Source: Eledone cirrhosa (Eukaryota). Taken from it: DNA of 64,000 nucleotides. The position numbers were made by a program, and so were the translations under genes. This document shows, piece by piece, positions 36,073 through 64,000 of the stretch. The DNA is taken from assembly GCA_964016885.1 (NCBI GenBank), contig OZ024740.1, positions 288,734,001 through 288,798,000 on the forward strand, given 5' to 3'. Position 1 is the stretch's first letter. Each line of letters begins with the position of its first letter. A model generated the notes under the pieces. It worked only from the letters and a program-made list of their open reading frames with translations, did no database searches and was not told where the DNA came from.

Positions 36073-37243
<1,171 letters not shown>

Positions 37244-37616
37244 CTGTATGTATATTAGTAATTTCTTAATAATACTAAACAAAAGGTGAATATTACTGCA
37301 TGAAAAATACCAAACTGATAAATTGCCATATAAGGATCCAAGAATTATGAGCTACTTAAACGCATGAAAATTTACCAATTGTTCACTCACTATATAACAA
37401 ATATCAGAAGAATGATACTGATGCCTGGTCTCATGGACAAGAATTAACTGAAGATTAATATATATATAATTAGCCTCAAACAGTTCCATTTCAAGGCTGC
37501 AAGAATGCATGCTGCCACTTTGGTCATCAACCAAGCTGTGTGGGATGGATTTCAATCAAACCTTAATGCTCTCTGTAGAAATTAACTAAGTTATTTGTGA
37601 ATGTGTGATTTTCCAG

Positions 37617-40600
37617 AGGCAGACAATGCAGATGGACAAATGATAATTCATGGCTACACACTTGAAAGATCCTTTGAAAATAATCTGATGTCTGATCGCA
37701 CTGAACTACAGAGTGTTGAAGTAGATGAAATCCATCATAAGCATTCCTTAACTCCATCTGATGAAGTCATGTGGATAAATGAATGCCAGCAAAGTGATAG
37801 GAAGAATTCAAATATCTGTGAGCGCTTTCAGGAAGTTGACAGTACATCCAGCAAGTCTTATCTCACAGAGTTGAAGCATTTTCAAGGAGATATGGATCAA
37901 TATGCCTCTAATGAATCCATGATAATTGATTTGAAGTTAAAAGAAAATCCTTTCAACCTAAATTCACACATCCATGATGAGTGCTTACATAAAGAAGAAT
38001 CTATTGCTTCAAACATGAAGACCTTACAATCTGATTCATGGAACACATCTGCTGATTATGATAACAGTTCTACATCATCTTGTATTACTGTTGTTGCTTT
38101 TGATACACAATCTATCCAAAGTTCCTCACCTGAACAACCTGACCCTGTATTAGGTTTATATGAAAAGCATTTATTTAAGTGTTCTGAAGTTGAAACCAGT
38201 TCCAACGATATACATACTTATTCCAAAGCACCATCTTCACAGAAACTGGACAATTTCAAACTTCCACCTTTTTCCTTTCCTTTTCATCCAATGTATTTTG
38301 AATCATATGACCATGGTGGAATGCCATGGCATATGTTTGGTGCTGGTAGAAACTTTCCTAATATGTATAACCATGAGAGCTTTCCAGATATGTATGGCCC
38401 TAACAGAATGTCTTTCCACAAGCATTACTCAAACAGAGATGCTCGAGACAGCTGTGATTACGACAGTATGTCTGAGTACCCATGTGACGTAAATAACAAG
38501 GCTGAGTATTTACACTGTGACAGAAAGTTTATGGATTCACAAGATGATATAGACATAAATACAGGATCTGTGTACTCATCTGACCATGACCAATCCGTAG
38601 GTAGTTCTGACACAGAAAGTTCTTTAGACACTAGCCATGACAACATAGCTCAACATACCCTTGACCATGACCCTGTATATGAGGAGACCTTTGCTTCTAA
38701 GCAACATGCTCCAGATACATTCACTTATAGCAGTGACTCACTAAATATTTACAAAGATGATAACATGATGCCCCTCGATACAGATGACCTTGAGGATTTG
38801 TCTCCAGACTTGTATAATTGCTACAGGTTGCCTTCTGACTTATACAAATATGACATGTTAACCAATGCATATGATATTGGGGAAATGAACTCTAGTAGAC
38901 TGACCATTAATTCACAGTACTGTAACACATTACCATCAATACAATCAGAGGCATACGACTCTGGTAGAATGCTAGCTGATGCATATGACCCACATAGAAT
39001 GACAGCTAATGCATATGACCCACGTAGAATGACAGCTAAGGCATATGATCCATGTAGAATGACAGCTGATGCATATGACCCGCGTAGAAGGACAGCTGAT
39101 GCATATGACCCGCGTAGAAAGACAGCTGATGCATATGACTCACATAAAATGAGAGCTAATACATATGACTCATATAGAATGACCTTTGATACTTATGACC
39201 CACCTAAAATGACAGCTAATAAAAATGACTCGCATAAAATGAAAGCTAATACATATGATTCACGTAGAATGACTTTTGATACTGCTGACTCCCATAGAAC
39301 AACAGATACATACGATTCTCATAGACTGAAAGCTAATACATTTGATTCTCGTAGAATGACAGATGATACTGCTGACTCCTGTAGAACAACAGATACATAC
39401 GATTCTCATAGACTGAGAGCTAATACATTTGATTCTCGTAGAATGACAGATGATACTGCTGACTCCTGTAGAACAACAGATACATACGATTCTCATAGAC
39501 TGAGAGCTAATATATATGATTCTCATAGAATGACAGATGGTACATATGATCCCCATAGAATGAGAGCTCATACATATGATCCCCATAGAATGAGAGCTCA
39601 TACATATGATCCCCATAGAATGAGAGCTCATACATATGATCCCCATAGAATGAGAGCTCATACATATGATCCCCATAGAATGAGCGCTAATACATGTGAT
39701 GTCCCTAGAGTGACCACTGATACATATGACTCAAATAGAATGAGCATTGATTCATTTGACTGTAATACCGTATTACATGATTCCTATGATTCTGGTAGAC
39801 TATCACCAGATATGTATGACTGTTATGCTTTATCACCATATATGTATAACTGTGACAGACATTCACCAGATACATTCAGCTTAGATCAAATGTCTGCTGA
39901 TTCATGCAATGAAGAATATGATGAAATGTTTTCTTCGAGGAATAGTCAGTCATCTGCAAATATTGATCAAAACTTTTACTCTACTAGAACTTACCCTGAA
40001 ACATTTAAAGAAAACTCTGCAATTTCTTTGAATAATATCTACAAACCAAGGAGTTTCTTTAAAAGGTGTGATAACCAGCAGCAACCTGTTAAAAATATAA
40101 GTAATATGTTCCCCCTTAGGGGATATCCTATGTCTAATATTTCTGACAGAGGTTTGATGTCCTACAGAAGATTTGATGCAGGGAGCTGTTGTGATGACAG
40201 TGATGAAAGTGATGTTTTGTCACTTGAAAGTTTAATTAATGATGACCTCAATGACATGAATAGTGAGGTCAATGGCACTGATAATCTGTTTGCAGAAGGC
40301 TATGATTTAGGGTTATTTTCTGACCTGCAGCATAGAATGAACCAAACACAGGATAAACATATATTTAACTGTGATGACTTTATATACTCACCAAATGCTA
40401 GAAATGGACAGTCTTCTGGCCAAAATGCTTTCAATGTCAGTAGACCAATGTCTAGTAAGTTCTCTGTTGATCAGAATGCACACTGGAATAGATGTAATAT
40501 TCCATTATACAGCAGCTTTAGTAACAACAATTATAATTATAACAGTTTTGATAATAACAGGGACAAGATGTACCAGCAGACAGAAGGTTCTAATTTCAAG

Positions 40601-42203
40601 AAAGACCACTTGAACAACACAAAGAAGATGGTGTCAAACAACCAATGCCAAGTGTATTCTCAGCCTGGAAGCTCTTTACAAAGTTTACAAAGCATTGACA
40701 ATTATGGCCCTGTGTTACTTCCTCCTCGCTACAAAGATTATGATAGACAATATCCTTATTCTGACAGGTTTAACAGCCATTACCCCTATATATTTGATCA
40801 ATGCTACCCAACACTACCAAATTATAATAGTGAAGATGGTGACTATATGTCTTTTGATAGTCCTAACAAAAAGAGTCTGAATAATCAAACATTTTCTCAG
40901 TTAAATGATCCTAACTTCACTCATGAAAATTTTCGTGATTTCTCAGAGAACAAGTCACTATTAGATTTTGAGAACAGAAGTATGAGTTTTCCTAAACGTT
41001 CTACTGGAGCAGGAAATTTTAATTCCCATCAGTCTTTAGATATGCACCCTAGATATGAAAGCAATCCCCAAGCTTCAAATGAAAAATTATCCAAACCCCT
41101 TCAAATGAGGAAACCAGAATACAATTGTTCCAGTCATTCTTCGTCTCTACCAAGATATCCCAGTAATATTACCCAAATGTCTAATTCTAACACTCCATTT
41201 CCTAATGCCATCAATAGTTACAACGGTGGTTTCAGATATAACAATGGGCCTTATGTAGACTTCCCACATGGTCCGAATTGGTTTGGCCAGCAAGAAATTC
41301 CTTTCCCTTTCCAAAGCTATCCTTTTGGTACCTGCACTTCCAGATCTGGTCTTAATCATTTCGGTAAGAACCAAATTCTTTCTGACTTCACTAAACCATT
41401 TTCTAACCATATTTTCTCTCCTGGAATGATATCAAATATGGTGAATGAAAGTTCTTTGAAGACCAAAGAATTACTGAGTGGACCATTAAAGGGTTCAGAT
41501 AGCCTATACTATCATGAAATTCCCAAACTGGGTGACCATTCTTGTTATAAATTTACACCTGGTAATTCTTTGGGCAGGTATGAAGGCTATTTAAAGAAAA
41601 TATCTTCTGATATATCATTAGAAGATGTACCTGCTCAAATTCCATCAAGACAAGAGGTGTCCAAGTCATCTATAGCACCTGAGGATGGTAAGCACTGCTA
41701 TGCAGTGATGCAGCAGATAAATCCTGACCAAACTTTCCCACTGACATATTCTATTGATTCTTTGTTTCTATTGGATTTTGAAATATCAAGAGTGGAAGAA
41801 AAGCTAACTTACGAAAGATCCAAATTGGAAAACCAGTCTATTGTAAGAGATAAGAAAACCCATTCTTTCACTGATATGTCTAGTGGTTTTGATGCCCTTG
41901 ATGGTCATGTGAGCACCTATTCTGGTAGAAGCATCTGTGATGTTCCTATGGTAGATGTTCAGTCACCTGCAGTGCCACCGTACACAATGCATGGTGTATC
42001 CTCCCCATGTCTTTGTGATAAGGTTAACATTAATAATACAACAGCATCTGAAGACAAGGAGATATCTTTAGAAGAATCAGGTTTGTTCACACAAGAATTT
42101 GAGATAGCTCCACCCAAAGACGAGTATATGTTCATCCTACATGGTTATGCTGCCAAGTTCAATCAAGATGTTTTTCTACACGAAGCTCTAAGTGACAGCA
42201 AAG
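37617..42203 (+). CDS. Giant exon 1 (4587 nt, 1529 codons, phase 1-1): low-complexity S/D/N/Y-rich, probably disordered insert, tentatively of a giant ankyrin gene
   Basis: The 1539-aa ORF 37601-42220 has an acceptor ttttccag|ag 16 nt after its ATG and a donor aaag|gtaatt just before its stop. Both are phase 1, matching the flanking exons. Confidence 0.85.
38951..39750 (+). repeat. Coding 30-bp (10-aa) tandem repeat [A/T]YD[P/S][H/R]RM[T/R]A[D/N/H], with an 87-bp higher-order unit
   Basis: TACATATGATCCCCATAGAATGAGAGCTCA x4 at 39541-39660. TYDSHRL(K/R)ANTFDSRRMTDDTADSCRTTD is repeated at ~39307-39480. Degenerate 10-aa periodicity extends from ~38800 to ~39900. Confidence 0.95.
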
Positions 42204-42832
42204 GTAATTATGGGTTTTAATCTACCATGCCAAACCATTAACAGAATCCATAAAACATTTCAAAGAACATCCAAGCTACTTATCAAAAAACACCCATAAT
42301 TATACAAAAGTTACTCACTTAAGAATTATTGTCAAGAAATTTATGAAATTTCTTGTTCTTCTTGTGCAAGTACAATGTATCTGATCTTTAGATCATGCAT
42401 AGTAGGGAACATAGTATTATGATATTTTGGCTAACTATTTACGATGTGGGTATTAATTCCAGTCTGCGTTGGTCATCACATCTAACAGTTTTATTGGCAT
42501 CCATTTCCTTTTTATTGTTACTTCCTGTTTTTGGATTGCAAAAGCATACTCTTCAAAGTGAAAGCTTTGATCCAAGATAGGCTCCTCTGGTTATCTATGT
42601 TACTGTCACTCTGGTGGTTTCTGGAAACAGCTGTGTATGACCCACTGATAAACAAAGCCTTTCATCTGCTGTTTTGTAACAGTAAAGTTGTGCAACTTCT
42701 CTGGGTGTGTGTCCTTTTTCATCAGTCATAGGAGACTTTGGAAATTTCTGATGGTGGTTAATCGTTTTCAAGTTTCAACATCAACGGCATAGATGTCATT
42801 TAGAATCCAATTAAGTATTTTAAATGTTAATG

Positions 42833-53213: not shown

Positions 53214-53862
53214 AATGACACAAGAAATGCCAAGATCAGTGAATGATAATGATAGATAGATTTAAGTTTAATATACAGTAGAATAGAAATAACTTCCTGT
53301 CCTCAGTTCAGATGAGACAGAATGTGATGGAGTAGAACATTTTCTGATGATTCTTCAGTCTGAATAGGCAAACTGAAGTTACTTCTGTCTGACTCCAATA
53401 CAGCACTTCTTTTCACATATTTGCGTTGCTACTGTAACTCTTCATCCTCCTTTACCATGTAACCTAACACTTTCTTAATCATAATCACACCATATGCAAA
53501 CTAATGATTTCTTTATACTCTCAACTTTGGTCCTATTCTGTATATCCAAGCTCTTACTTAACAAATGTAGTCAAGTTGTATTTTTGTTTTGTTTACAGTT
53601 ACACATTATACATATATACGGATGCATTTACATTGGCATATTTTACATGTTCATATATGTGTGTATGCTTACACACACACATGCATACACAGTATACATA
53701 AATGAAGTATGTACTAGATATTCATATCTTTTATTGTCCCTCAATTCCAGTGCCTTTTTCACTTCATCTCTGATTAGCTTATCTCTCTGGTCTCTTTTGG
53801 TTTGGATTTTGGCTGATCATTTTTCAGCTATTAGTAACTTTTCAGTAATTTTTGCTTTACAG

Positions 53863-56800
53863 TCACTTGGAAACGTTCGAATGCTATGAAAAAAAGAAAA
53901 CACAAAAAAAAATCACCCAGTGATGCCCAGATAAAACAAGATAATGTGAGAGTAAAATTCCCTAGAGTGGAGATTAAGGTTGAAGGGGAAGCTGTTGTTG
54001 ACTCCCCTACAAATGAAATTGATGTGGAAGAATATGATAAGATTTTGGAGGATGGTACCCTGTACCATATTAAACGAGTCCGAAGATATTCACAGTCTCG
54101 TATCCACACAAAAATTGTTTCAGAAGATGGCACAGAAAGAGAGGTTGAGGAGAATATTAATATACCTGGAACAGAGGATATTGATACGATCGAGACTTTT
54201 GAGCAGCTGCCTCACTCTGAAAGTGTGGTGGAAAGTGTCTCGGAAACACTTCCTACTGGGAAGGTGGTTAAGCGAAAGGTGAAAAATATTCGAATGGTGC
54301 ACAAGGTCAAGACAAAGCATGAACACATCACGCCAGACCACACTAGCAAACGGGAAGAATATGAAATCAATGAGGTTATTCCTGGTACAGAAAATTCTTT
54401 TTACCTAGATGTTGATTCTACTCCGGTGAGTGATACCGAAAATGAAGATCAGCATCCTGCTCAGAAACCTCATATATTTGTTGACAAGAATATGTATCGT
54501 GTAGATTTACCATTTGAGCTGGAACGCTTTCATCATGTTCATCAAGATAACCAGGAAAAACTTCAAGTTGATGGTGAAGAAAGCAAACACGTTGTTCATC
54601 AACCTGTGGATCAAAATGCACAGCAAACTGTTCATAGACATAGTGATCAAGAAGGCTGGGAGGCAGATTATCTACCAGCAGATCAAGACTCACCAGAACT
54701 TGTGGAAAAGCCAATTGAGCAAGACTGTGTAAAGTCAGTGAACCTTTCTGCTACAGAAGGTCATCACTATATTTCTAATGAAGATGACTTGCATAATTTA
54801 CAACCTCTTGCCGAGGATAACCAAAACATTGATAAACATATTCCTGAAAATAGCCAACAGATTGGATTATCTGAGAGATTAGATTTCAAATGTCCAAAAA
54901 TTTCTGTAATCAAAGACGGTCAGCATGACATCATGCCCACCAATCAAGAGAGTACAAAGGTTCGACTATCAACTGGTCAAGGTGTCTATAATGTGGATCT
55001 ACCTTTAGCTTTGGAGAGTCTGCACCGACGTGACAAGAAGAACGAGCAGAGTGGTCTAAATCAAATTCAAGAAACTGAGTGTATAAGCATCCAACAAGGT
55101 ATTGAAGTTTATGCTGCACAAAGTTTTGAGCTGCCTACTGTTCAAAATACACAAGGAAGTGTTGAGCTATGCAATGGCCAAGACCCACTCCAAGATGTCA
55201 CTCCATCAAATGACATCACTATTGGACAAGATCTCCCTGAAGCTATTGAACAGTCTCTGAGAGAATATCATGTAAAACCAGTTGATCTGCCAGCAAGTGA
55301 ATATCATTTAACTGATGAACAAGATGGTCAAGAAATTAAACTGCCTTTTTTTCAAGATGTTCCATGTGTACAGATATCCAATCAAGATACTAAATCTGCT
55401 TATATTCCCAGTGAGCAATACAGTGATCCCATTGCCACACCCACAGCTCAAGAGAGACAAGATAACAGACAGTCCATTGGTGAAGGTGTCTATCATGTGG
55501 ATGTCCCTGTAGCTTTAGAGAGCCTTCATCGAATTGACCGATCTAAGGGACAAAAAACACGTGGCCACATTCATGAGCCTTCTGATCAGGGTGTCAAAAA
55601 AACTGACCATGATCTCAGAAAAAGTGTTGAGCTACACAGTGGCCAAGACCCACTCCAAGATATCACTCTGTCACCTGATCAAGATCAACAATTGCCAGAA
55701 GTGACATTGACCCATGAAAATGTTCAAACTGTTCAAATGAGCCCTGGTCAACTTCCTGGTAATTTGTCAACAGATCAAGATATTCCATGTGTACCTCCAC
55801 CTACTGGTCAAAGTAGCAGAAATTCCTTGGGTAGAGGTGTCTATCATGTTGATCAACCTGTCAGTCTGGAAACTTTATACAATGTTAAGAAACCTTCTAT
55901 TGAAGCAAGTGAGCATCCTGTTGACCATTCAGCTGATGTCATTGAGAACGATGATGTCAACATTTCTTATGCTCCACATATTCCATATGGTCAAGATTCT
56001 AATATTGAATGGAAATCTGGTCAAGATATTCCAAAAGTAAAAATGGCCAAAGGTGAAGATAATTTTCAATATGGTAGTCTACCTACAAGTGAACAGCTAC
56101 AGAAGTCAAATGTAACCACACCTACTGGTCAATATGGTGTCTACCATGTTGACCTTCCTGTGGATCTGGAACAACTACATCGTGTTGCCCAGCCTTCTCG
56201 TCCAGATGTCTCTGGATATGTAGATAAAACTATTGGTCAACCTGACATCACTGCTGGTCAAGATCTCCCTGAAGCTATTGAACAGTCTCTAGGCGAATAT
56301 CATGTAAAACCAGTTGATCTCCCAGCAGGTGAAGATCATTTAACTGATGAACAAGATGGTCAAGAAATTAAACTGCCTTCTTTTCAAGATGTTCCATGTG
56401 TACAGATATCCAATCAAGATACTAAATCGGCTTATATTCCCAGTGAGCAATACAGTGATCCCATTGCCACACCCGCAGCTCAAGAGAGACAAGATAACAG
56501 ACAGTCCATTGGTGAAGGTGTCTATCATGTGGATGTCCCTGTAGCTTTAGAGAGCCTTCATCGAATTGACCGATCTAAGGGACAAAAACCACGTGGCCAC
56601 ATTGATCAGCCTTCTGATCAGGGTATCAAAAAAACTGACCATGATCTCAGAAAAAGTGTTGAGCTACATGGTGGCCAAGACCCTCTCCAAGATATCACTC
56701 TGTCACCTGATCAAGATCGACAATTGCCAGAAGTGACATTGACCCATGAAAATGTTCAAACTGTTCAAATGAGCCCTGGTCAACTTCCTGGTAATTTGTC

Positions 56801-59800
56801 AACAGATCAAGATATTCCATGTGTACCTCTACCTACTGGTCAAAGTAGCAGAAATTCCTTGGGTAGAGGTGTCTATCATGTTGATCAACCTGTCAGTCTG
56901 GAAACTTTATACAATGTTAAGAAACCTTCTATTGAAGCAAGTGAGCATCCTGTTGACCATTCAGCTGATGTCATTGAGAACGATGATGTCAACATTTCTT
57001 ATGCTCCACATATTCCATATGGTCAAGATTCTAATATTGAATGGAAATCTGGTCAAGATATTCCAAAAGTAAAAATGGCCAAAGGTGAAGATAATTTTCA
57101 ATATGGTAGTCTACCTACAAGTGAACAGCTACAGAAGTCAAATGTAACCACACCTACTGGTCAATATGGTGTCTACCATGTTGACCTTCCTGTGGATCTG
57201 GAACAACTACATCGTGTTGCCCAGCCTTCTCGTCCAGATGTCTCTGGATATGTAGATAAAACTATTGGTCAACCTGACATCACTGCTGGTCAAGATCTCC
57301 CTGAAGCTATTGAACAGTCTCTAGGCGAATATCATGTAAAACCAGTTGATCTCCCAGCAGGTGAAGATCATTTAACTGATGAACAAGATGGTCAAGAAAT
57401 TAAACTGCCTTCTTTTCAAGATGTTCCATGTGTACAGATATCCAATCAAGATACTAAATCTGCTTATATTCCCAGTGAGCAATACAGTGATCCCATTGCC
57501 ACACCCACAGCTCAAGAGAGACAAGATAACAGACAGTCCATTGGTGAAGGTGTCTATCATGTGGATGTCCCTGTAGCTTTAGAGAGCCTTCATCGAATTG
57601 ACCGATCTAAGGGACAAAAACCACGTGGCCCCATTGATCAGCCTTCTGATCAGGGTGTCAAAAAAACTGACCATGATCTCAGAAAAAGTGTTGAGCTACA
57701 CGGTGGCCAAGACCCTCTCCAAGATATCACTCTGTCACCTGATCAAGATCAACAATTGCCAGAAGTGACATTGACCCATGAAAATGTTCAAATTGTTCAA
57801 ATGAGCCCTGGTCAACTTCCTGGTAATTTGTCAACAGATCAAGATATTCCATGTGTACCTCCACCTACTGGTCAAAGTAGCAGAAATTCGTTGGGTAGAG
57901 GTGTCTATCATGTTGATCAACCTGTCAGTCTGGAAACTTTATACAATGTTAAGAAACCTTCTATTGAAGCAAGTGAGTATCCTTCTGACCATTCAGCTGA
58001 TGTCATTGAGAACGCTGATGTTAACATTTCTTATGCTCCACATATTCCATATGGTCAAGATTCTAATATTGAATGGAAATCTGGTCAAGATATTCCAAAA
58101 GTAAAAATGGCCAAAAGTGAAGATAATTTTCAATATGGTGATCTACCTACAAGTGAACAGCTACAGAAGTCAAATGTAACCACACCTACTGGTCAATATG
58201 GTGTCTACCATGTTGACCATCCTGTGGATCTGGAACAACTACATCGTGTTGCCCAGCCTTCTCATCCAGATGTCTCTGGATATGTAGATAAAACTATTGG
58301 TCAACCTGACATCACTGCTGGTCAAGATCTCCCTGAAGCTATTGAACAGTCTCTAGGAGAATATCATGTAAAACCAGTTGATCTCCCAGCAGGTGAAGAT
58401 CATTTAACTGATGAACAAGATGGTCAAGAAATTAGACTGCCTTTTTTTCAAGATGTTCCATGTGTACAGATATCCAATCAAGATACTAAATCTGCTTATA
58501 TTCCCAGTGAGCAATACAGTGATACCATTGCCACACCCACAGCTCAAGAGAGACAAGATAACAGACAGTCCATTGGTGAAGGTGTCTATCATGTGGATGT
58601 CCCTATAGCTTTAGAGAGCCTTCATCGAATTGACCGATCTAAGGGACAAAAACCACGTAGCCATGTTCATCAGCCTTCTGATCAGGGTGTCAAAAATACT
58701 GACCATGATCTCAGAAAAAGTGTTGAGCTACACAGTGGCCAAGACCCTCTCCAAGATATCACTCTGTCACCTGATCAATATCAACAATTGCCAGAAGTGA
58801 TATTGACCCATGAAAATGTTCAAACTGTTCAAATGAGCCCTGGTCAACTTCCTGGTAATTTGTCAACAGATCAAGATATTCCATGTGTACCTCCACCTAC
58901 TGGTCAAAGTAGCAGAAATTCCTTGGGTAGAGGTGTCTATCATGTTGATCAACCTGTCAGTCTGGAAACTTTATACAATGTTAAGAAACCTTCTATTGAA
59001 GCAAGTGAGTATCCTGTTGACCATTCAGCTGATGTCAACATTTCTTATGCTCCACATATTCCATATGGTCAAGATTCTAATATTGAATGGAAATCTGGTC
59101 AAGATATTCCAAAAGTAAAAATGGCCAAAAGTGAAGATAATTTTCAATATGGTGATCTACCTACAAGTGAACAGCTACAGAAGTCAAATGTAACCACACC
59201 TACTGGTCAATATGGTGTCTACCATGTTGACCTTCCTGTGGATCTGGAACAACTACATTGTGTTGCCCAGCCTTCTCGTCCAGATGTCTCTGGATATGTA
59301 GATAAAACTATTGGTCAACCTGACATCACTGCTGGTCAAGATCTCCCTGAAGCTATTGAACAGTCTCAAGGAGAATATCATGTAAAACCAGTTGATCTCT
59401 CAGCAGGTGAAGATCATTTAACTGATGAACAAGATGGTCAAGAAATTAAACTGCCTTCTTTTCAAGATGTTCCATGTGTACAGATATCCAATCAAGATAC
59501 TAAATCTGCTTATATTCCCAGTGAGCAATACAGTGATCCCATTGCCACACCCACAGCTCAAGAGAGACAAGATAACAGACAGTCCATTGGTGAAGGTGTC
59601 TATCATGTGGATGTCCCTATAGCTTTAGAGAGCCTTCATCGAATTGACCGATCTAAGGGACAAAAACCACGTAGCCATGTTCATCAGCCTTCTGATCAGG
59701 GTGTCAAAAATACTGACCATGATCTCAGAAAAAGTGTTGAGCTACACAGTGGCCAAGACCCTCTCCAAGATATCACTCTGTCACCTGATCAATATCAACA

Positions 59801-62800
59801 ATTGCCAGAAGTGATATTGACCCATGAAAATGTTCAAACTGTTCAAATGAGCCCTGGTCAACTTCCTGGTAATTTGTCAACAGATCAAGATATTCCATGT
59901 GTACCTCCACCTACTGGTCAAAGTAGCAGAAATTCCTTGGGTAGAGGTGTCTATCATGTTGATCAACCTGTCAGTCTGGAAACTTTATACAATGTTAAGA
60001 AACCTTCTATTGAAGCAAGTGAGTATCCTGTTGACCATTCAGCTGATGTCATTGAGAACGCTGATGTCAACATTTCTTATGCTCCACATATTCCATATGG
60101 TCAAGATTCTAATATTGAATGGAAATCTGGTCAAGATATTCCAAAAGTAAAAATGGCCAAAAGTGAAGATAATTTTCAATATGGTGATCTACCTACAAGT
60201 GAACAGCTACAGAAGTCAAATGTAACCACACCTACTGGTCAATATGGTGTCTACCATGTTGACCTTCCTGTGGATCTGGAACAACTACATTGTGTTGCCC
60301 AGCCTTCTCGTCCAGATGTCTCTGGATATGTAGATAAAACTATTGGTCAACCTGACATCACTGCTGGTCAAGATCTCCCTGAAGCTATTGAACAATCTCA
60401 AGGAGAATATCATGTAAAACCAGTTGATCTCCCAGCAGGTGAAGATCATTTAACTGATGAACAAGATGGTCAAGAAATTAAACTGCCTTCTTTTCAAGAT
60501 GTTCCATGTGTACAGATATCCAATCAAGATACTAAATCTGCTTATATTCCCAGTGAGCAATACAGTGATCCCATTGCCACACCCACAGCTCAAGAGAGAC
60601 AAGATAACAGACAGTCCATTGGTGAAGGTGTCTATCATGTGGATGTCCCTATAGCTTTAGAGAGCCTTCATCGAATTGACCGATCTAAGGGACAAAAACC
60701 ACGTAGCCATGTTCATCAGCCTTCTGATCAGGGTGTCAAAAATACTGACCATGATCTCAGAAAAAGTGTTGAGCTACACAGTGGCCAAGACCCTCTCCAA
60801 GATATCACTCTGTCACCTGATCAATATCAACAATTGCCAGAAGTGATATTGACCCATGAAAATGTTCAAACTGTTCAAATGAGCCCTGGTCAACTTCCTG
60901 GTAATTTGTCAACAGATCAAGATATTCCATGTGTACCTCCACCTACTGGTCAAAGTAGCAGAAATTCCTTGGGTAGAGGTGTCTATCATGTTGATCAACC
61001 TGTCAGTCTGGAAACTTTATACAATGTTAAGAAACCTTCTATTGAAGCAAGTGAGTATCCTGTTGACCATTCAGCTGATGTCATTGAGAACGATGATGTC
61101 AACATTTCTTATGCTCCACATATTCCATATGGTCAAGATTCTAATATTGAATGGAAATCTGGTCAAGATATTCCAAAAGTAAAAATGGCCAAAAGTGAAG
61201 ATAATTTTCAATATGGTGATCTACCTACAAGTGAACAGCTACAGAAGTCAAATGTAACCACACCTACTGGTCAATATGGTGTCTACCATGTTGACCATCC
61301 TGTGGATCTGGAACAACTACATCGTGTTGCCCAGCCTTCTCATCCAGATGTCTCTGGATATGTAGATAAAACTATTGGTCAACCTGACATCACTGCTGGT
61401 CAAGATCTCCCTGAAGCTATTGAACAGTCTCTAGGAGAATATCATGTAAAACCAGTTGATCTCCCAGCAGGTGAAGATCATTTAACTGATGAACAAGATG
61501 GTCAAGAAATTAAACTGCCTTTTTTTCAAGATGTTCCATGTGTACAGATATCCAATCAAGATACTAAATCTGCTTATATTCCCAGTGAGCAATACAGTGA
61601 TCCCATTGCCACACCCACAGCTCAAGAGAGACAAGATAACAGACAGTCCATTGGTGAAGGTGTCTATCATGTGGATGTCCCTGTAGCTTTAGAGAGCCTT
61701 CATCGAATTGACCGATCTAAGGGACAAAAACCACGTGGCCACATTGATCAGCCTTCTGATCAGGGTATCAAAAAAACTGACCATGATCTCAGAAAAAGTG
61801 TTGAGCTACACGGTGGCCAAGACCCTCTCCAAGATATCACTCTGTCACCTGATCAAGATCGACAATTGCCAGAAGTGACATTGACCCATGAAAATGTTCA
61901 AACTGTTCAAATGAGCCCTGGTCAACTTCCTGGTAATTTGTCAACAGATCAAGATATTCCATGTGTACCTCTACCTACTGGTCAAAGTAGCAGAAATTCC
62001 TTGGGTAGAGGTGTCTATCATGTTGATCAACCTGTCAGTCTGGAAACTTTATACAATGTTAAGAAACCTTCTATTGAAGCAAGTGAGCATCCTGTTGACC
62101 ATTCAGCTGATGTCATTGAGAACGATGATGTCAACATTTCTTATGCTCCACATATTCCATATGGTCAAGATTCTAATATTGAATGGAAATCTGGTCAAGA
62201 TATTCCAAAAGTAAAAATGGCCAAAGGTGAAGATAATTTTCAATATGGTGATCTACCTACAAGTGAACAGCTACAGAAGTCAAATGTAACCACACCTACT
62301 GGTCAATATGGTGTCTACCATGTTGACCTTCCTGTGGATCTGGAACAACTACATCGTGTTGCCCAGCCTTCTCGTCCGGATGTCTCTGGATATGTTGATA
62401 AAACTATTGGTCAACCTGACATCACTGCTGGTCAAGATCTCCCTGAAGCTATTGAACAGTCTCTAGGAGAATATCATGTAAAACCAGTTTATCTCCCAGC
62501 AGGTGAAGATCATTTAACTGATGAACAAGATGGTCAAGAAATTAAACTGCCTTCTTTTCAAGATGTTCCATGTGTACAGATATCCAATCAAGATACTAAA
62601 TCTGCTTATATTCCCAGTGAGCAATACAGTGATCCCATTGCCACACCCACAGCTCAAGAGAGACAAGATAACAGACAGTCCATTGGTGAAGGTGTCTATC
62701 ATGTGGATGTCCCTATAGCTTTAGAGAGCCTTCATCGAATTGACCGATCTAAGGGACAAAAACCACGTGGCCACATTCATCAGCCTTCTGATCAGGGTGT

Positions 62801-64000
62801 CAAAAAAACTGACCATGATCTCAGAAAAAGTGTTGAGCTACACAGTGGCCAAGACCCTCTCCAAGATATCACTCTGTCACCTGATCAAGATCAACAATTG
62901 CCAGACGTGACATTGACCCATGAAAATGTTCAAACTGTTCAAATGAGCCCTGGTCAACTTCCTGGTAATTTGTCAACAGATCAAGATATTCCATGTTTAC
63001 CTCCACCTACTGGTCAAAGTAGCAGAAATTCCTTGGGTAGAGGTGTCTATCATGTTGATCAACCTGTCAGTCTGGAAACTTTATACAATGTTAAGAAACC
63101 TTCTATTGAAGCAAGTGAGTATCCTTCTGACCATTCAGCTGATGTCATTGAGAATGCTGATGTCAACATTTCTTATGCTCCACATATTCCATATGGTCAA
63201 GATTCTAATATTGAATGGAAATCTGGTCAAGATATTCCAAAAGTAAAAATGGCCAAAAGTGAAGATAATTTTCAATATGGTGGTCTACCTACAAGTGAAC
63301 AGCTACAGAAGTCAAATGTAACCACACCTACTGGTCAATATGGTGTCTACCATGTTGACCTTCCTGTGGATCTGGAACAACTACATCGTGTTGCCCAGCC
63401 TTCTCGTCCAGATGTCTCTGGATATGTAGATAAAACTATTGGTCAACCTGACATCACTACTGGTCAAGATCTCCCTGAAGCTATTGAACAGTCTCTAGGA
63501 GAATATCATTTAAAACCAGTTGATCTCCCAGCAGGTGAAGATCATTTAACTGATGAACAAGATGGTCAAGAAATTAAACTGCCTTCTTTTCAAGATGTTC
63601 CACGTGTACAGATATCCAATCAAGATACTAAATCTGCTTATATTCCCAGTGAGCAATACAGTGATCCCATTGCCACACCCACAGCTCAAGAGAGACAAGA
63701 TAACAGACAGTCCATTGGTGAAGGTGTCTATCATGTGGATGTCCCTGTAGCTTTAGAGAGCCTTCATCGAATTGACCGATCTAAGGGACAAAAACCACGT
63801 GGCCACATTCATCAGCCTTCTGATCAGGATGTCAAAAAAACTGACCATGATCTCAGAAAAAGTGTTGAGCTACACAGTGGCCAAGATATCACTCTGTCAC
63901 CTGATCAAGATCAACAATTGCCAGAAGTGACATTGACTCATAATCTCAGAAAAAGTGTCCAACCTATTGATCAGGATGTTGAAGAATATTGCTATTATGT
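53863..64000 (+). CDS. Giant exon 2 (>10,138 nt, open to window end): unique ~450-aa N-terminal part then ~8.5 x 344-aa repeats; tentatively a giant ankyrin long exon
   Basis: Acceptor tttttgctttacag|tc, phase 1. Frame +3 reads (V)TWKRSNAMKKRKHKKKSP…IDVEEYDKILEDGTLYHIKRVRR…EEYEINEVIPGTENSF… and is still in frame at the end (…VQPIDQDVEEYCYY). The in-frame ATG at 53886 is absent from the ORF track, as expected if no stop occurs. Confidence 0.92.
55212..63940 (+). repeat. Coding tandem array of 1032-bp units (8 full plus ~0.47)
   Basis: Unit starts (GACATCACT) at 55212, 56244, 57276, 58308, 59322, 60354, 61386, 62418 and 63450. Unit 4 is 1014 bp. The off-frame ORFs in the track recur with the same spacing. 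Confidence 0.98.

What the first reader, a model, noticed from the sequence alone, without database searches (positions are those of the whole stretch)
54492..63770. Periodic motif GVYHVDxPVxLExL(H/Y), ~27 copies, nested three per repeat
Seen: each unit has GVYHVDVPVALESLHR (55485), GVYHVDQPVSLETLYN (55836) and GVYHVDLPVDLEQLHR (56136), spaced 117/100/127 aa. Diverged copies lie in the unique region: MYRVDLPFELERFHH (54492) and GVYNVDLPLALESLHR (54981). The spacers between the three copies are barely alignable, yet the motif is kept. Inference: the 344-aa unit is a trimer of an older ~115-aa unit, and the motif is a selected, possibly undescribed binding motif displayed multivalently. The YHV(D)-hydrophobic part only loosely resembles a LIR.
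Basis: partly seen in the sequence, partly recalled or inferred. Interest (0 to 1): 0.82.

Follow-up and report, generated by a model that had tools for sequence, protein, structure and literature searches.

The report
Repeated motif in octopus giant ankyrin
A 16-residue motif occurs 27 times in a huge exon of an octopus ankyrin gene and stays far more alike between copies and species than the sequence around it, so it is likely a docking site that would let this cell-skeleton scaffold bind many copies of a partner not yet identified.

Summary
In detail: 27 copies, 25 of them in about 8.4 near-identical 344-aa units, three per unit. The ORF is a 12,570-nt cassette exon of an ankyrin gene, downstream of the death domain. 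One contig of a public run (kind not on record) joins it in frame to a post-death-domain exon. Octopus bimaculoides has the same exon with 7-8 copies.

Between species the motif is 42/48 identical and the spacers 122/292. Among the A/B/C copies synonymous sites are near saturation while the amino acids are kept, so the constraint is on protein. The motif is not a canonical LIR (Asp at +3 in 13/13). It had no significant match in Pfam or PDB sequences, no mention in the papers searched, and is absent from 36 other proteins carrying the exon's N-terminal domain.

Best reading: a short docking motif shown many times on a disordered giant-ankyrin tail, like the repeat arrays of fly Ank2-XL and mammalian giant ankyrin-B, but unrelated in sequence. 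Binding and partner are untested; only two species are known; the recent eight units show no selection. New variant of a known kind.

The parts
53848..53862 (+). Splice acceptor (pyrimidine tract, AG) of the giant exon
   Evidence: Sequence. The X4 contig leaves the genome here; its 28 loose letters match the end of a post-death-domain exon about 6.0 kb before the window.
53863..64000 (+). Giant cassette exon of ankyrin. It runs 2432 nt past the window end; total 12,570 nt, phase 1 at both ends
   Evidence: The donor agrees with the O. bimaculoides model, which joins this end to downstream ankyrin exons. The donor was not checked with reads.
53988..54404 (+). N-terminal ~140-aa module shared with other proteins (named ones are molluscan); predicted all-beta domain with no family name
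   Evidence: 37 hits; AlphaFold2 block pLDDT 95-98 over residues 11-140; no Pfam or PDB-sequence match; best fold match Z 6.7, none at 8 or more.
54489..54536 (+). Motif copy U0 (diverged)
   Evidence: 14/16 identical to the first O. bimaculoides copy against 32/77 in the flanks.
54981..55028 (+). Motif copy U1
55211..63886 (+). Tandem array of about 8.4 units of 1032 nt (344 aa), 25 motif copies
   Evidence: Units 96-99% identical in DNA.
55485..55532 (+). Motif type A, first copy (9 copies, last at 63723-63770)
55836..55883 (+). Motif type B, first copy (8 copies)
56136..56183 (+). Motif type C, first copy (8 copies)

Best explanation
The 27 copies lie in a giant cassette exon of an octopus ankyrin gene and are likely short docking motifs on a predicted disordered tail, which would bind many copies of one partner protein by avidity. 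Shown: the exon lies downstream of the ANK, ZU5, UPA and death-domain exons; it is joined in frame to a post-death-domain exon in one contig; the motif is conserved in amino acids, not codons, while the spacers drift. Inferred: when the exon is included, the ankyrin core anchors at the membrane-spectrin skeleton and the tail presents motifs about every 115 residues. The fixed Tyr, Val, Asp, Pro and the Leu-Glu-x-Leu/Phe block would insert into a groove of a folded partner, while the spacers give reach and solubility. By analogy with fly Ank2-XL and giant ankyrin-B the partner is most likely a microtubule-associated or cortical scaffold protein. The unit is acidic (pI 4.7), so docking on a protein is more likely than charge-driven binding to the microtubule lattice. 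Copy number would tune avidity or length (7-8 in O. bimaculoides, 27 here). The partner is not identified.
For: Gene context: ANK exons, ZU5, UPA, death domain, all upstream on the same strand. A slug death-domain protein maps in order to the death-domain exons, this exon's module and the last exon. Splice junction. Orthologue with 7 copies; an HMM built only from window copies finds all 7. Motif against spacer identity between species: 42/48 vs 122/292, P=1.5e-9, using each copy once; 82/96 vs 231/534 with both rounds, which uses the window copies twice. Within O. bimaculoides: 39/48 vs 135/249. Among A/B/C motifs pS 0.53-0.86, pN 0.13-0.27. Tyr3, Val5, Asp6, Pro8 fixed in 13/13 distinct copies, Leu11 and Glu12 in 12/13. 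No fold predicted for the array, pLDDT 24.5. Precedent for copy-number-dependent binding by giant-ankyrin repeats: PMC7401806 passages; PMC6703079 passages.
Against: No binding evidence of any kind. Only two species carry the motif in the data reached. Among the eight recent units pN 0.018 is not below pS 0.014, and 3 of 48 motif codons vary non-synonymously against 32 of 296 spacer codons (P=0.44): no selection per copy is visible there, at low power. One O. bimaculoides copy has lost Leu11-Glu12. Motif identity (42/48) equals that of the neighbouring giant exons (3925/4331, P=0.45), so the fast spacers are as unusual as the slow motif. The second half is no more amphipathic than spacer windows (0.19-0.54 against a 90th percentile of 0.42). 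The AlphaFold2 run had only 2 sequences, so low confidence is weak evidence of disorder. The junction rests on one contig of a run whose kind is not on record. The O. bimaculoides models start at a Met inside this exon and lack the ankyrin core.
Confidence: 0.55

Rival explanations
1. The exon is mainly a length spacer. The motif was constrained in the ancestral few-copy state, and the 25-copy array is a recent, nearly neutral expansion with no added function.
For: pN is not below pS among recent units; copy number 7-8 against 27; the whole exon evolves faster (61-71% outside the array) than other giant exons (88-93%). Jegla 2016 reports that only part of the fly XL array is needed and that arrays are not conserved over long distances.
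Against: The frame is open over 12.6 kb. The motif is kept in both lineages and among the older, about 54% identical O. bimaculoides duplicates. This rival explains the copy number, not why the motif is kept.
Confidence: 0.18
2. The motif binds ankyrin's own ANK-repeat groove, like the autoinhibitory tail segments of ankyrin-R, B and G, and so gates membrane-target binding or links many ankyrin heads to one tail.
For: Site-1 ligands have a hydrophobic stretch followed by an anchoring Glu (PMC4358367 passages; AI-a with 'PPIV', PMC5779224 passages). The motif has Pro-Val-x-Leu-Glu with Glu in 12/13 copies. AI-a lies in the tail after the death domain.
Against: The run of acidic residues that follows the Glu in site-1 ligands is missing (x-Leu-His-Arg follows). 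One ANK domain needs one inhibitor, not 27. The pattern is too loose to test by sequence.
Confidence: 0.12
3. The motif has a structural role of its own: copies associate with each other, bind a metal through His/Asp/Glu, or pack on the exon's N-terminal beta domain.
For: 21 of 48 motif residues are hydrophobic against 68 of 296 in spacers. His4, Asp6, Glu12 and His15 are common. The motif is two related half-sites 12 residues apart.
Against: His4 and His15 are each kept in only 10 of 13 copies. No packing in the seven-motif model or of U0 on the domain, both weak because the motif had little or no alignment depth. The domain occurs without the motif in 36 other proteins.
Confidence: 0.08
4. 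The motif is a non-canonical half-LIR that binds GABARAP/LC3 through Tyr in the first pocket and a helix behind it.
For: Tyr is fixed; position +7 is Asp or Glu in 7 of 13 copies. Half-LIRs exist and vertebrate giant ankyrins bind Atg8 proteins with a LIR plus helix (PMC7615515 passages).
Against: +3 is Asp in 13/13; -1 is Val/Met/Leu and -2 Gly/Asn, not acidic. Canonical LIR-pattern sites conserved in O. bimaculoides lie in another giant exon of the same gene.
Confidence: 0.05
5. The likeness is kept at DNA or RNA level (gene conversion between copies, a splicing or editing element), not by selection on protein.
For: The array is plainly shaped by unequal exchange; units are 96-99% identical.
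Against: Synonymous sites among A/B/C motifs are near saturation (pS 0.53-0.86); A and C share 13 residues but use different codons for 8 of them.
Confidence: 0.03

Closest known systems
Long exons of protostome giant ankyrins (Jegla et al. 2016, PMC5135030)
   Same: Multi-kilobase open exon downstream of the death domain of a canonical ankyrin; lineage-restricted repeat array.
   Different: Unit of 1032 bp against 36-228 bp in their set. Ser+Glu is 14.6% and S/E/T/D/K/P 41.9%, against about 25% and over 55%; two other giant exons of this gene do fit (28-29%, 59-67%). It looks like a short molluscan exon that grew by repeat gain. A short motif is conserved within drifting spacers. No cephalopod is in their S4 table.
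Drosophila Ank2-XL 76-aa repeat array (via PMC5135030 and PMC6703079; Stephan 2015 itself not seen)
   Same: Large near-identical array in a post-death-domain giant exon; proposed spacer and microtubule/Futsch organiser.
   Different: No visible sequence likeness to the consensus in S4 Table (compared by eye). The fly unit is Lys/Glu/Pro-rich and has no reported nested hydrophobic motif.
Giant ankyrin-B 15 x 12-aa microtubule-binding repeats (PMC7401806)
   Same: Short motif repeated in a disordered giant-ankyrin insert; binding rises with copy number.
   Different: Those repeats are contiguous, basic (pI 10.6) and upstream of the death domain. These are spaced by about 100 residues, hydrophobic, in an acidic unit (pI 4.7).
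LIR/AIM and the extended LIR-plus-helix of AnkB/AnkG (PMC7615515)
   Same: Aromatic residue followed by a possible short helix.
   Different: Asp at +3 and no acidic residues at -1 and -2.
ANK-repeat site-1 ligands and autoinhibitory segments (PMC4358367, PMC5779224)
   Same: Hydrophobic stretch with Pro, then a conserved Glu, in an ankyrin tail.
   Different: No acidic second half; many copies instead of one.
O. bimaculoides XP_014787059.1 / LOC106881226 ('titin-like' or uncharacterized)
   Same: Orthologous exon, same A/B/C types, 7 copies in the model and an eighth in two isoform models.
   Different: Units are about 54% identical to each other, not a fresh expansion. The record is not annotated as ankyrin and the motif is not described.

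Membership tests
Canonical ankyrin gene | ANK repeats, ZU5-ZU5-UPA and death domain in order upstream on the same strand | tested here: met
   One ZU5 exon was matched here; the second ZU5 and a full count of 24 repeats were not mapped.
Giant ankyrin long exon (protostome type) | Multi-kb open exon downstream of the death domain | tested here: met
   12,570 nt, phase 1-1.
Giant ankyrin long exon (protostome type) | Spliced in frame to the ankyrin core | tested here: met
   5' junction in one contig. The link from that upstream exon to the death domain is inferred from in-frame GT-AG sites and the slug protein. The 3' junction rests on the O. bimaculoides model.
Giant ankyrin long exon (protostome type) | Ser/Glu-rich composition (about 25% S+E, over 55% S/E/T/D/K/P) | tested here: not met
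   14.6% and 41.9%; definition from PMC5135030 section 9.
Giant ankyrin long exon (protostome type) | Neuronal expression and axonal localisation | not testable with these tools
   No RNA holder listed; tissue of X4 not on record.
Canonical LIR/AIM | W/F/Y at position 0 | tested here: met
   Tyr in 13/13.
Canonical LIR/AIM | L/I/V at +3 | tested here: not met
   Asp in 13/13. Only the 3' half of the U0 copies has an F-x-x-V.
Canonical LIR/AIM | Acidic or phosphorylatable residues at -1 to -3 | tested here: not met
   Val/Met/Leu at -1, Gly/Asn at -2, mixed at -3 with Glu in 1 of 13.
Canonical LIR/AIM | Binds an Atg8 protein | not tested
   The genome's Atg8 genes were found only as separate exons; no complex prediction was available.
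Giant ankyrin-B type microtubule-binding repeats | Contiguous basic short repeats | tested here: not met
   Unit pI 4.7, 55 D+E against 26 K+R.
ANK-repeat site-1 ligand | Hydrophobic stretch, anchoring Glu, acidic second half | tested here: inconclusive
   First two present, third absent.
Any Pfam repeat or domain family | Match at the curated cut-off | tested here: not met
   0 families for the unit; 6 weak rows, all under cut-off, best E 0.01.

The most novel reading that the evidence does not exclude
Octopuses turned a short, mollusc-wide ankyrin exon carrying an unnamed beta-sheet domain into a further giant exon by multiplying a new 16-residue docking motif. The motif recruits a specific cytoskeletal or scaffold partner, and copy number (7-8 to 27) acts as a species-specific dial on avidity or on the spacing of the cortical skeleton, possibly in unmyelinated axons.
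Probability: 0.3. Interest if true: 0.75.

Novelty: new variant of a known kind. Interest (0 to 1): 0.47.

Why it matters
Giant-ankyrin tails organise axons, but their sequence changes too fast to show which parts work; Jegla 2016 found no homology between phyla. Here a defined 16-residue element stands out by selection inside a drifting array, giving a ready peptide bait for finding what an invertebrate giant-ankyrin tail binds. It also shows one way a long exon can arise, by repeat gain in an older short exon. If no partner exists, it remains a lineage-specific repeat of a kind already known.

Tried and rejected
Word-based homologue searches found nothing: 0 of 4597 candidates of 1550-4425 aa, 0 of 569 of 4376-5000 aa, 0 of 8000 of 30-397 aa. 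Lengths 398-1549 and over 5000 were not covered by that tool. The full HMMER scan gave 37 hits, one with the motif; relatives within 50% identity may be hidden behind one representative, so squid and cuttlefish remain open.

ESM Atlas: no usable hit for the unit or the module. PDB sequences with the motif profile: 6 rows, best E 0.29, taken as chance. A 34-aa motif query on the own genome gave 26 of 26 candidates inside this exon (a lower bound). The window-built motif HMM found nothing outside this ORF among plus-strand ORFs of 463 kb (best E 1.4).

No RNA holder listed. Summed contig depth over the array is about 10-12 times that of the unique part in X1 and X4; the tool says this is no copy number and X1 may be the assembly's source, so it is not used as proof. 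The Foldseek PDB search did not run; only the wide VIA search did.

A UIM-like stretch in spacer C (pattern recalled) was dropped because its Ala is not kept in O. bimaculoides. The amphipathic-helix idea was not supported by hydrophobic moment. A likeness of the module to the SAS-4 TCP domain is weak (2 of 34 members at E 0.007; Z 5.3, rank 25) and is not claimed. Earlier scan notes: nothing. S2 Table of Jegla 2016 is cut at 400 characters per cell, so the Aplysia and Lottia tails could not be checked for the motif.
Full report
Observation. Six-frame translation gives one long ORF on the + strand from 53838 that runs past the window end, 4204 codons in all. It holds 27 copies of the motif at the stated places. 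25 lie in a 1032-nt array, about 55211-63886, three per unit at 117/100/127 aa; two diverged copies precede it. The eight full units are 96-99% identical in DNA, so the window holds five independent versions: U0, U1, A, B, C. The pattern did not arise in 2000 shuffles. Spacers of A, B and C align no better than 15-26 of 500 shuffles, while three pairs involving U0 and U1 (U0-U1, U0-A, U1-A) beat all 500.

Host gene. The window lies in a 3.0-Gb genome. Upstream on the same strand are ANK-repeat exons (about 132-80 kb before the window), a ZU5 exon, UPA exons and a death-domain exon 14.9 kb before the window. Downstream are two further giant ORFs of 2744 and 3320 aa. The motif ORF has an acceptor at 53862/3 and a donor 12,570 nt later, both phase 1. 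In run X4, whose kind is not on record, one contig of 1424 nt leaves the genome at the acceptor. Its 28 loose letters match once in the 10 kb before the window, at the end of a post-death-domain exon that is followed by GT. The joint skips about 60 kb and keeps the frame. A contig of run X1 runs through the intron instead. I infer that X4 is RNA and the exon is spliced into ankyrin mRNA; this is one contig and one junction. A slug death-domain protein maps in order to three death-domain-region exons, the start of this exon and the gene's last exon, so the exon belongs to ankyrin in gastropods too.

Relatives. A full HMMER scan of 1.84 billion representatives gave 37 hits. One is the orthologue, O. 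bimaculoides XP_014787059.1, which joins this exon to the downstream giant exons but starts at a Met inside it and lacks the ankyrin core. It has 7 copies in the order U0-B-C-A-B-C-A; two of the 15 listed isoform models carry a further C-type copy in place of U0. The other 36 hits match only the first 140 or so residues; the two named ones of nine looked up are from Mytilus and Arion. None of the 36 has the motif (best 3.2 bits), whereas an HMM built from window copies alone finds all 7 O. bimaculoides copies. On these data the motif is confined to two octopuses, but squid and cuttlefish were not reached.

Selection. The motif was defined from the window's own copies, so the second species is an independent test. 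Using each copy once, the motif is 42/48 identical and the spacers 122/292 (P=1.5e-9); within O. bimaculoides 39/48 against 135/249; around U0 14/16 against 32/77. Over both rounds, five of six motif windows score 13-16 of 16, above the best of 441 spacer windows (12); one scores 11. Among A, B and C the synonymous sites are near saturation (pS 0.53-0.86) while pN is 0.13-0.27; picking the window by likeness inflates this, but it rules out DNA-level homogenisation. Against: the eight recent units show pN 0.018 and pS 0.014, with no deficit of changes in the motif (3/48 vs 32/296, P=0.44). The motif's identity matches that of the other giant exons (3925/4331), and exceeds that of the exon's own N-terminal module (89/126, P=0.03).

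History of the unit. B-type segments of both species group at 99/99 support; A and C groupings are weaker, so the trimer is older than the species split. Profile comparison of spacers alone gives weak residual likeness (A-B and C-U0 0 of 40 shuffles, A-C 1, B-C 3, A-U0 3, B-U0 21). The motif itself is two related half-sites 12 residues apart, and similar half-sites recur later in the exon. An older repeated unit is likely; a tidy 115-aa ancestor is not shown.

Anatomy. Of 13 distinct copies, Tyr3, Val5, Asp6 and Pro8 are fixed, Leu11 and Glu12 occur in 12, position 14 is always Leu or Phe. The unit is acidic and AlphaFold2 gives no fold (pLDDT 24.5, two sequences only). The N-terminal module, in contrast, is predicted with block pLDDT 95-98 as an all-beta domain, has no Pfam or PDB-sequence match and no fold match at Z 8 or more among 48,161 chains (best 6.7).

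Mechanism. A short hydrophobic element kept in an otherwise drifting, probably disordered chain is the usual signature of a docking motif (established knowledge, inference here). I put multivalent docking on one protein partner at 0.55, most likely cytoskeletal by analogy with fly Ank2-XL and giant ankyrin-B. Rivals: neutral spacer expansion 0.18, binding to ankyrin's own ANK groove 0.12, a structural or metal role 0.08, half-LIR 0.05, nucleotide-level constraint 0.03. No binding was tested.

Comparison with what is known. Long exons after the death domain, with species-restricted repeat arrays, are described by Jegla 2016 (PMC5135030; seen: passages, section 8, first part of section 9, S4 Table whole, two cut rows of S2 Table). 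This exon meets position and size but fails the Ser/Glu composition, which the two downstream giant exons meet, and its unit is far longer than the 36-228 bp reported. It is not a canonical LIR (definition from PMC7615515 passages), nor a giant-ankyrin-B type basic repeat (PMC7401806 passages). PMC6703079, PMC4358367 and PMC5779224 were seen as passages only; Stephan 2015 was not seen. A search for two motif strings and two accessions found 0 papers. Searches on cephalopod ankyrin listed none that describes this exon, judged from listings only. Subscription journals and unseen supplements may hold more.

Verdict. A real, selected and apparently undescribed motif in an atypical giant exon of octopus ankyrin. 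The class of object is known; the motif, the nested design and the N-terminal domain were not found in the sources searched. Interest 0.47; new variant of a known kind.

Noticed in passing
window 53988-54404: About 140-aa module found in 37 proteins (named ones molluscan, one a death-domain protein), sometimes doubled. Predicted all-beta with long hairpins and two internal half-repeats; no Pfam, PDB-sequence, Atlas or clear fold match. Possibly an unnamed ankyrin tail domain.
   Followed up: partly
window 37601-42217: 1539-codon ORF with AG at about 37616 and a phase-1 donor at about 42203, holding 10-aa repeats. A further candidate long exon; skipped by the junction seen in X4 and not matched by the O. 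bimaculoides model.
   Followed up: partly
L010:1524-2964 (same exon, past the window end): Second array of 31 His/Cys/Gly-rich 16-aa repeats; O. bimaculoides has about 21 related copies. No Pfam match. Could bind metal; untested.
   Followed up: partly
L011:9150 to L012:7381 and L014:7275 to L015:7234: Two Ser/Glu-rich giant exons (2744 and 3320 codons), 88-93% identical to O. bimaculoides outside their repeats. The first has canonical LIR-pattern sites conserved in both species.
   Followed up: partly
L016:5183-8368: 1062-codon ORF of Gly/Asp/Ala/Thr/Tyr-rich 8-aa repeats inside the ankyrin gene, open in several frames and on both strands; not in the O. bimaculoides model. Exon or minisatellite, unexplained.
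   Followed up: no
L011:2925-3041: Small exon, 97% identical to O. bimaculoides, containing a stretch like the calcineurin PxIxIT docking motif (pattern recalled).
   Followed up: no
window 53863-64000: The whole exon evolves faster than the gene's other giant exons: 61-71% identity outside the array and about 42% in spacers, against 88-93%.
   Followed up: partly
window 11489-18051 and 36073-37228: Very long TA-rich microsatellite tracts in the intron; they give false ORFs in all frames.
   Followed up: no
window 1-35 and L034:9770-10000: End of a further phase-1 candidate exon of ankyrin, skipped by the junction seen in X4.
   Followed up: no
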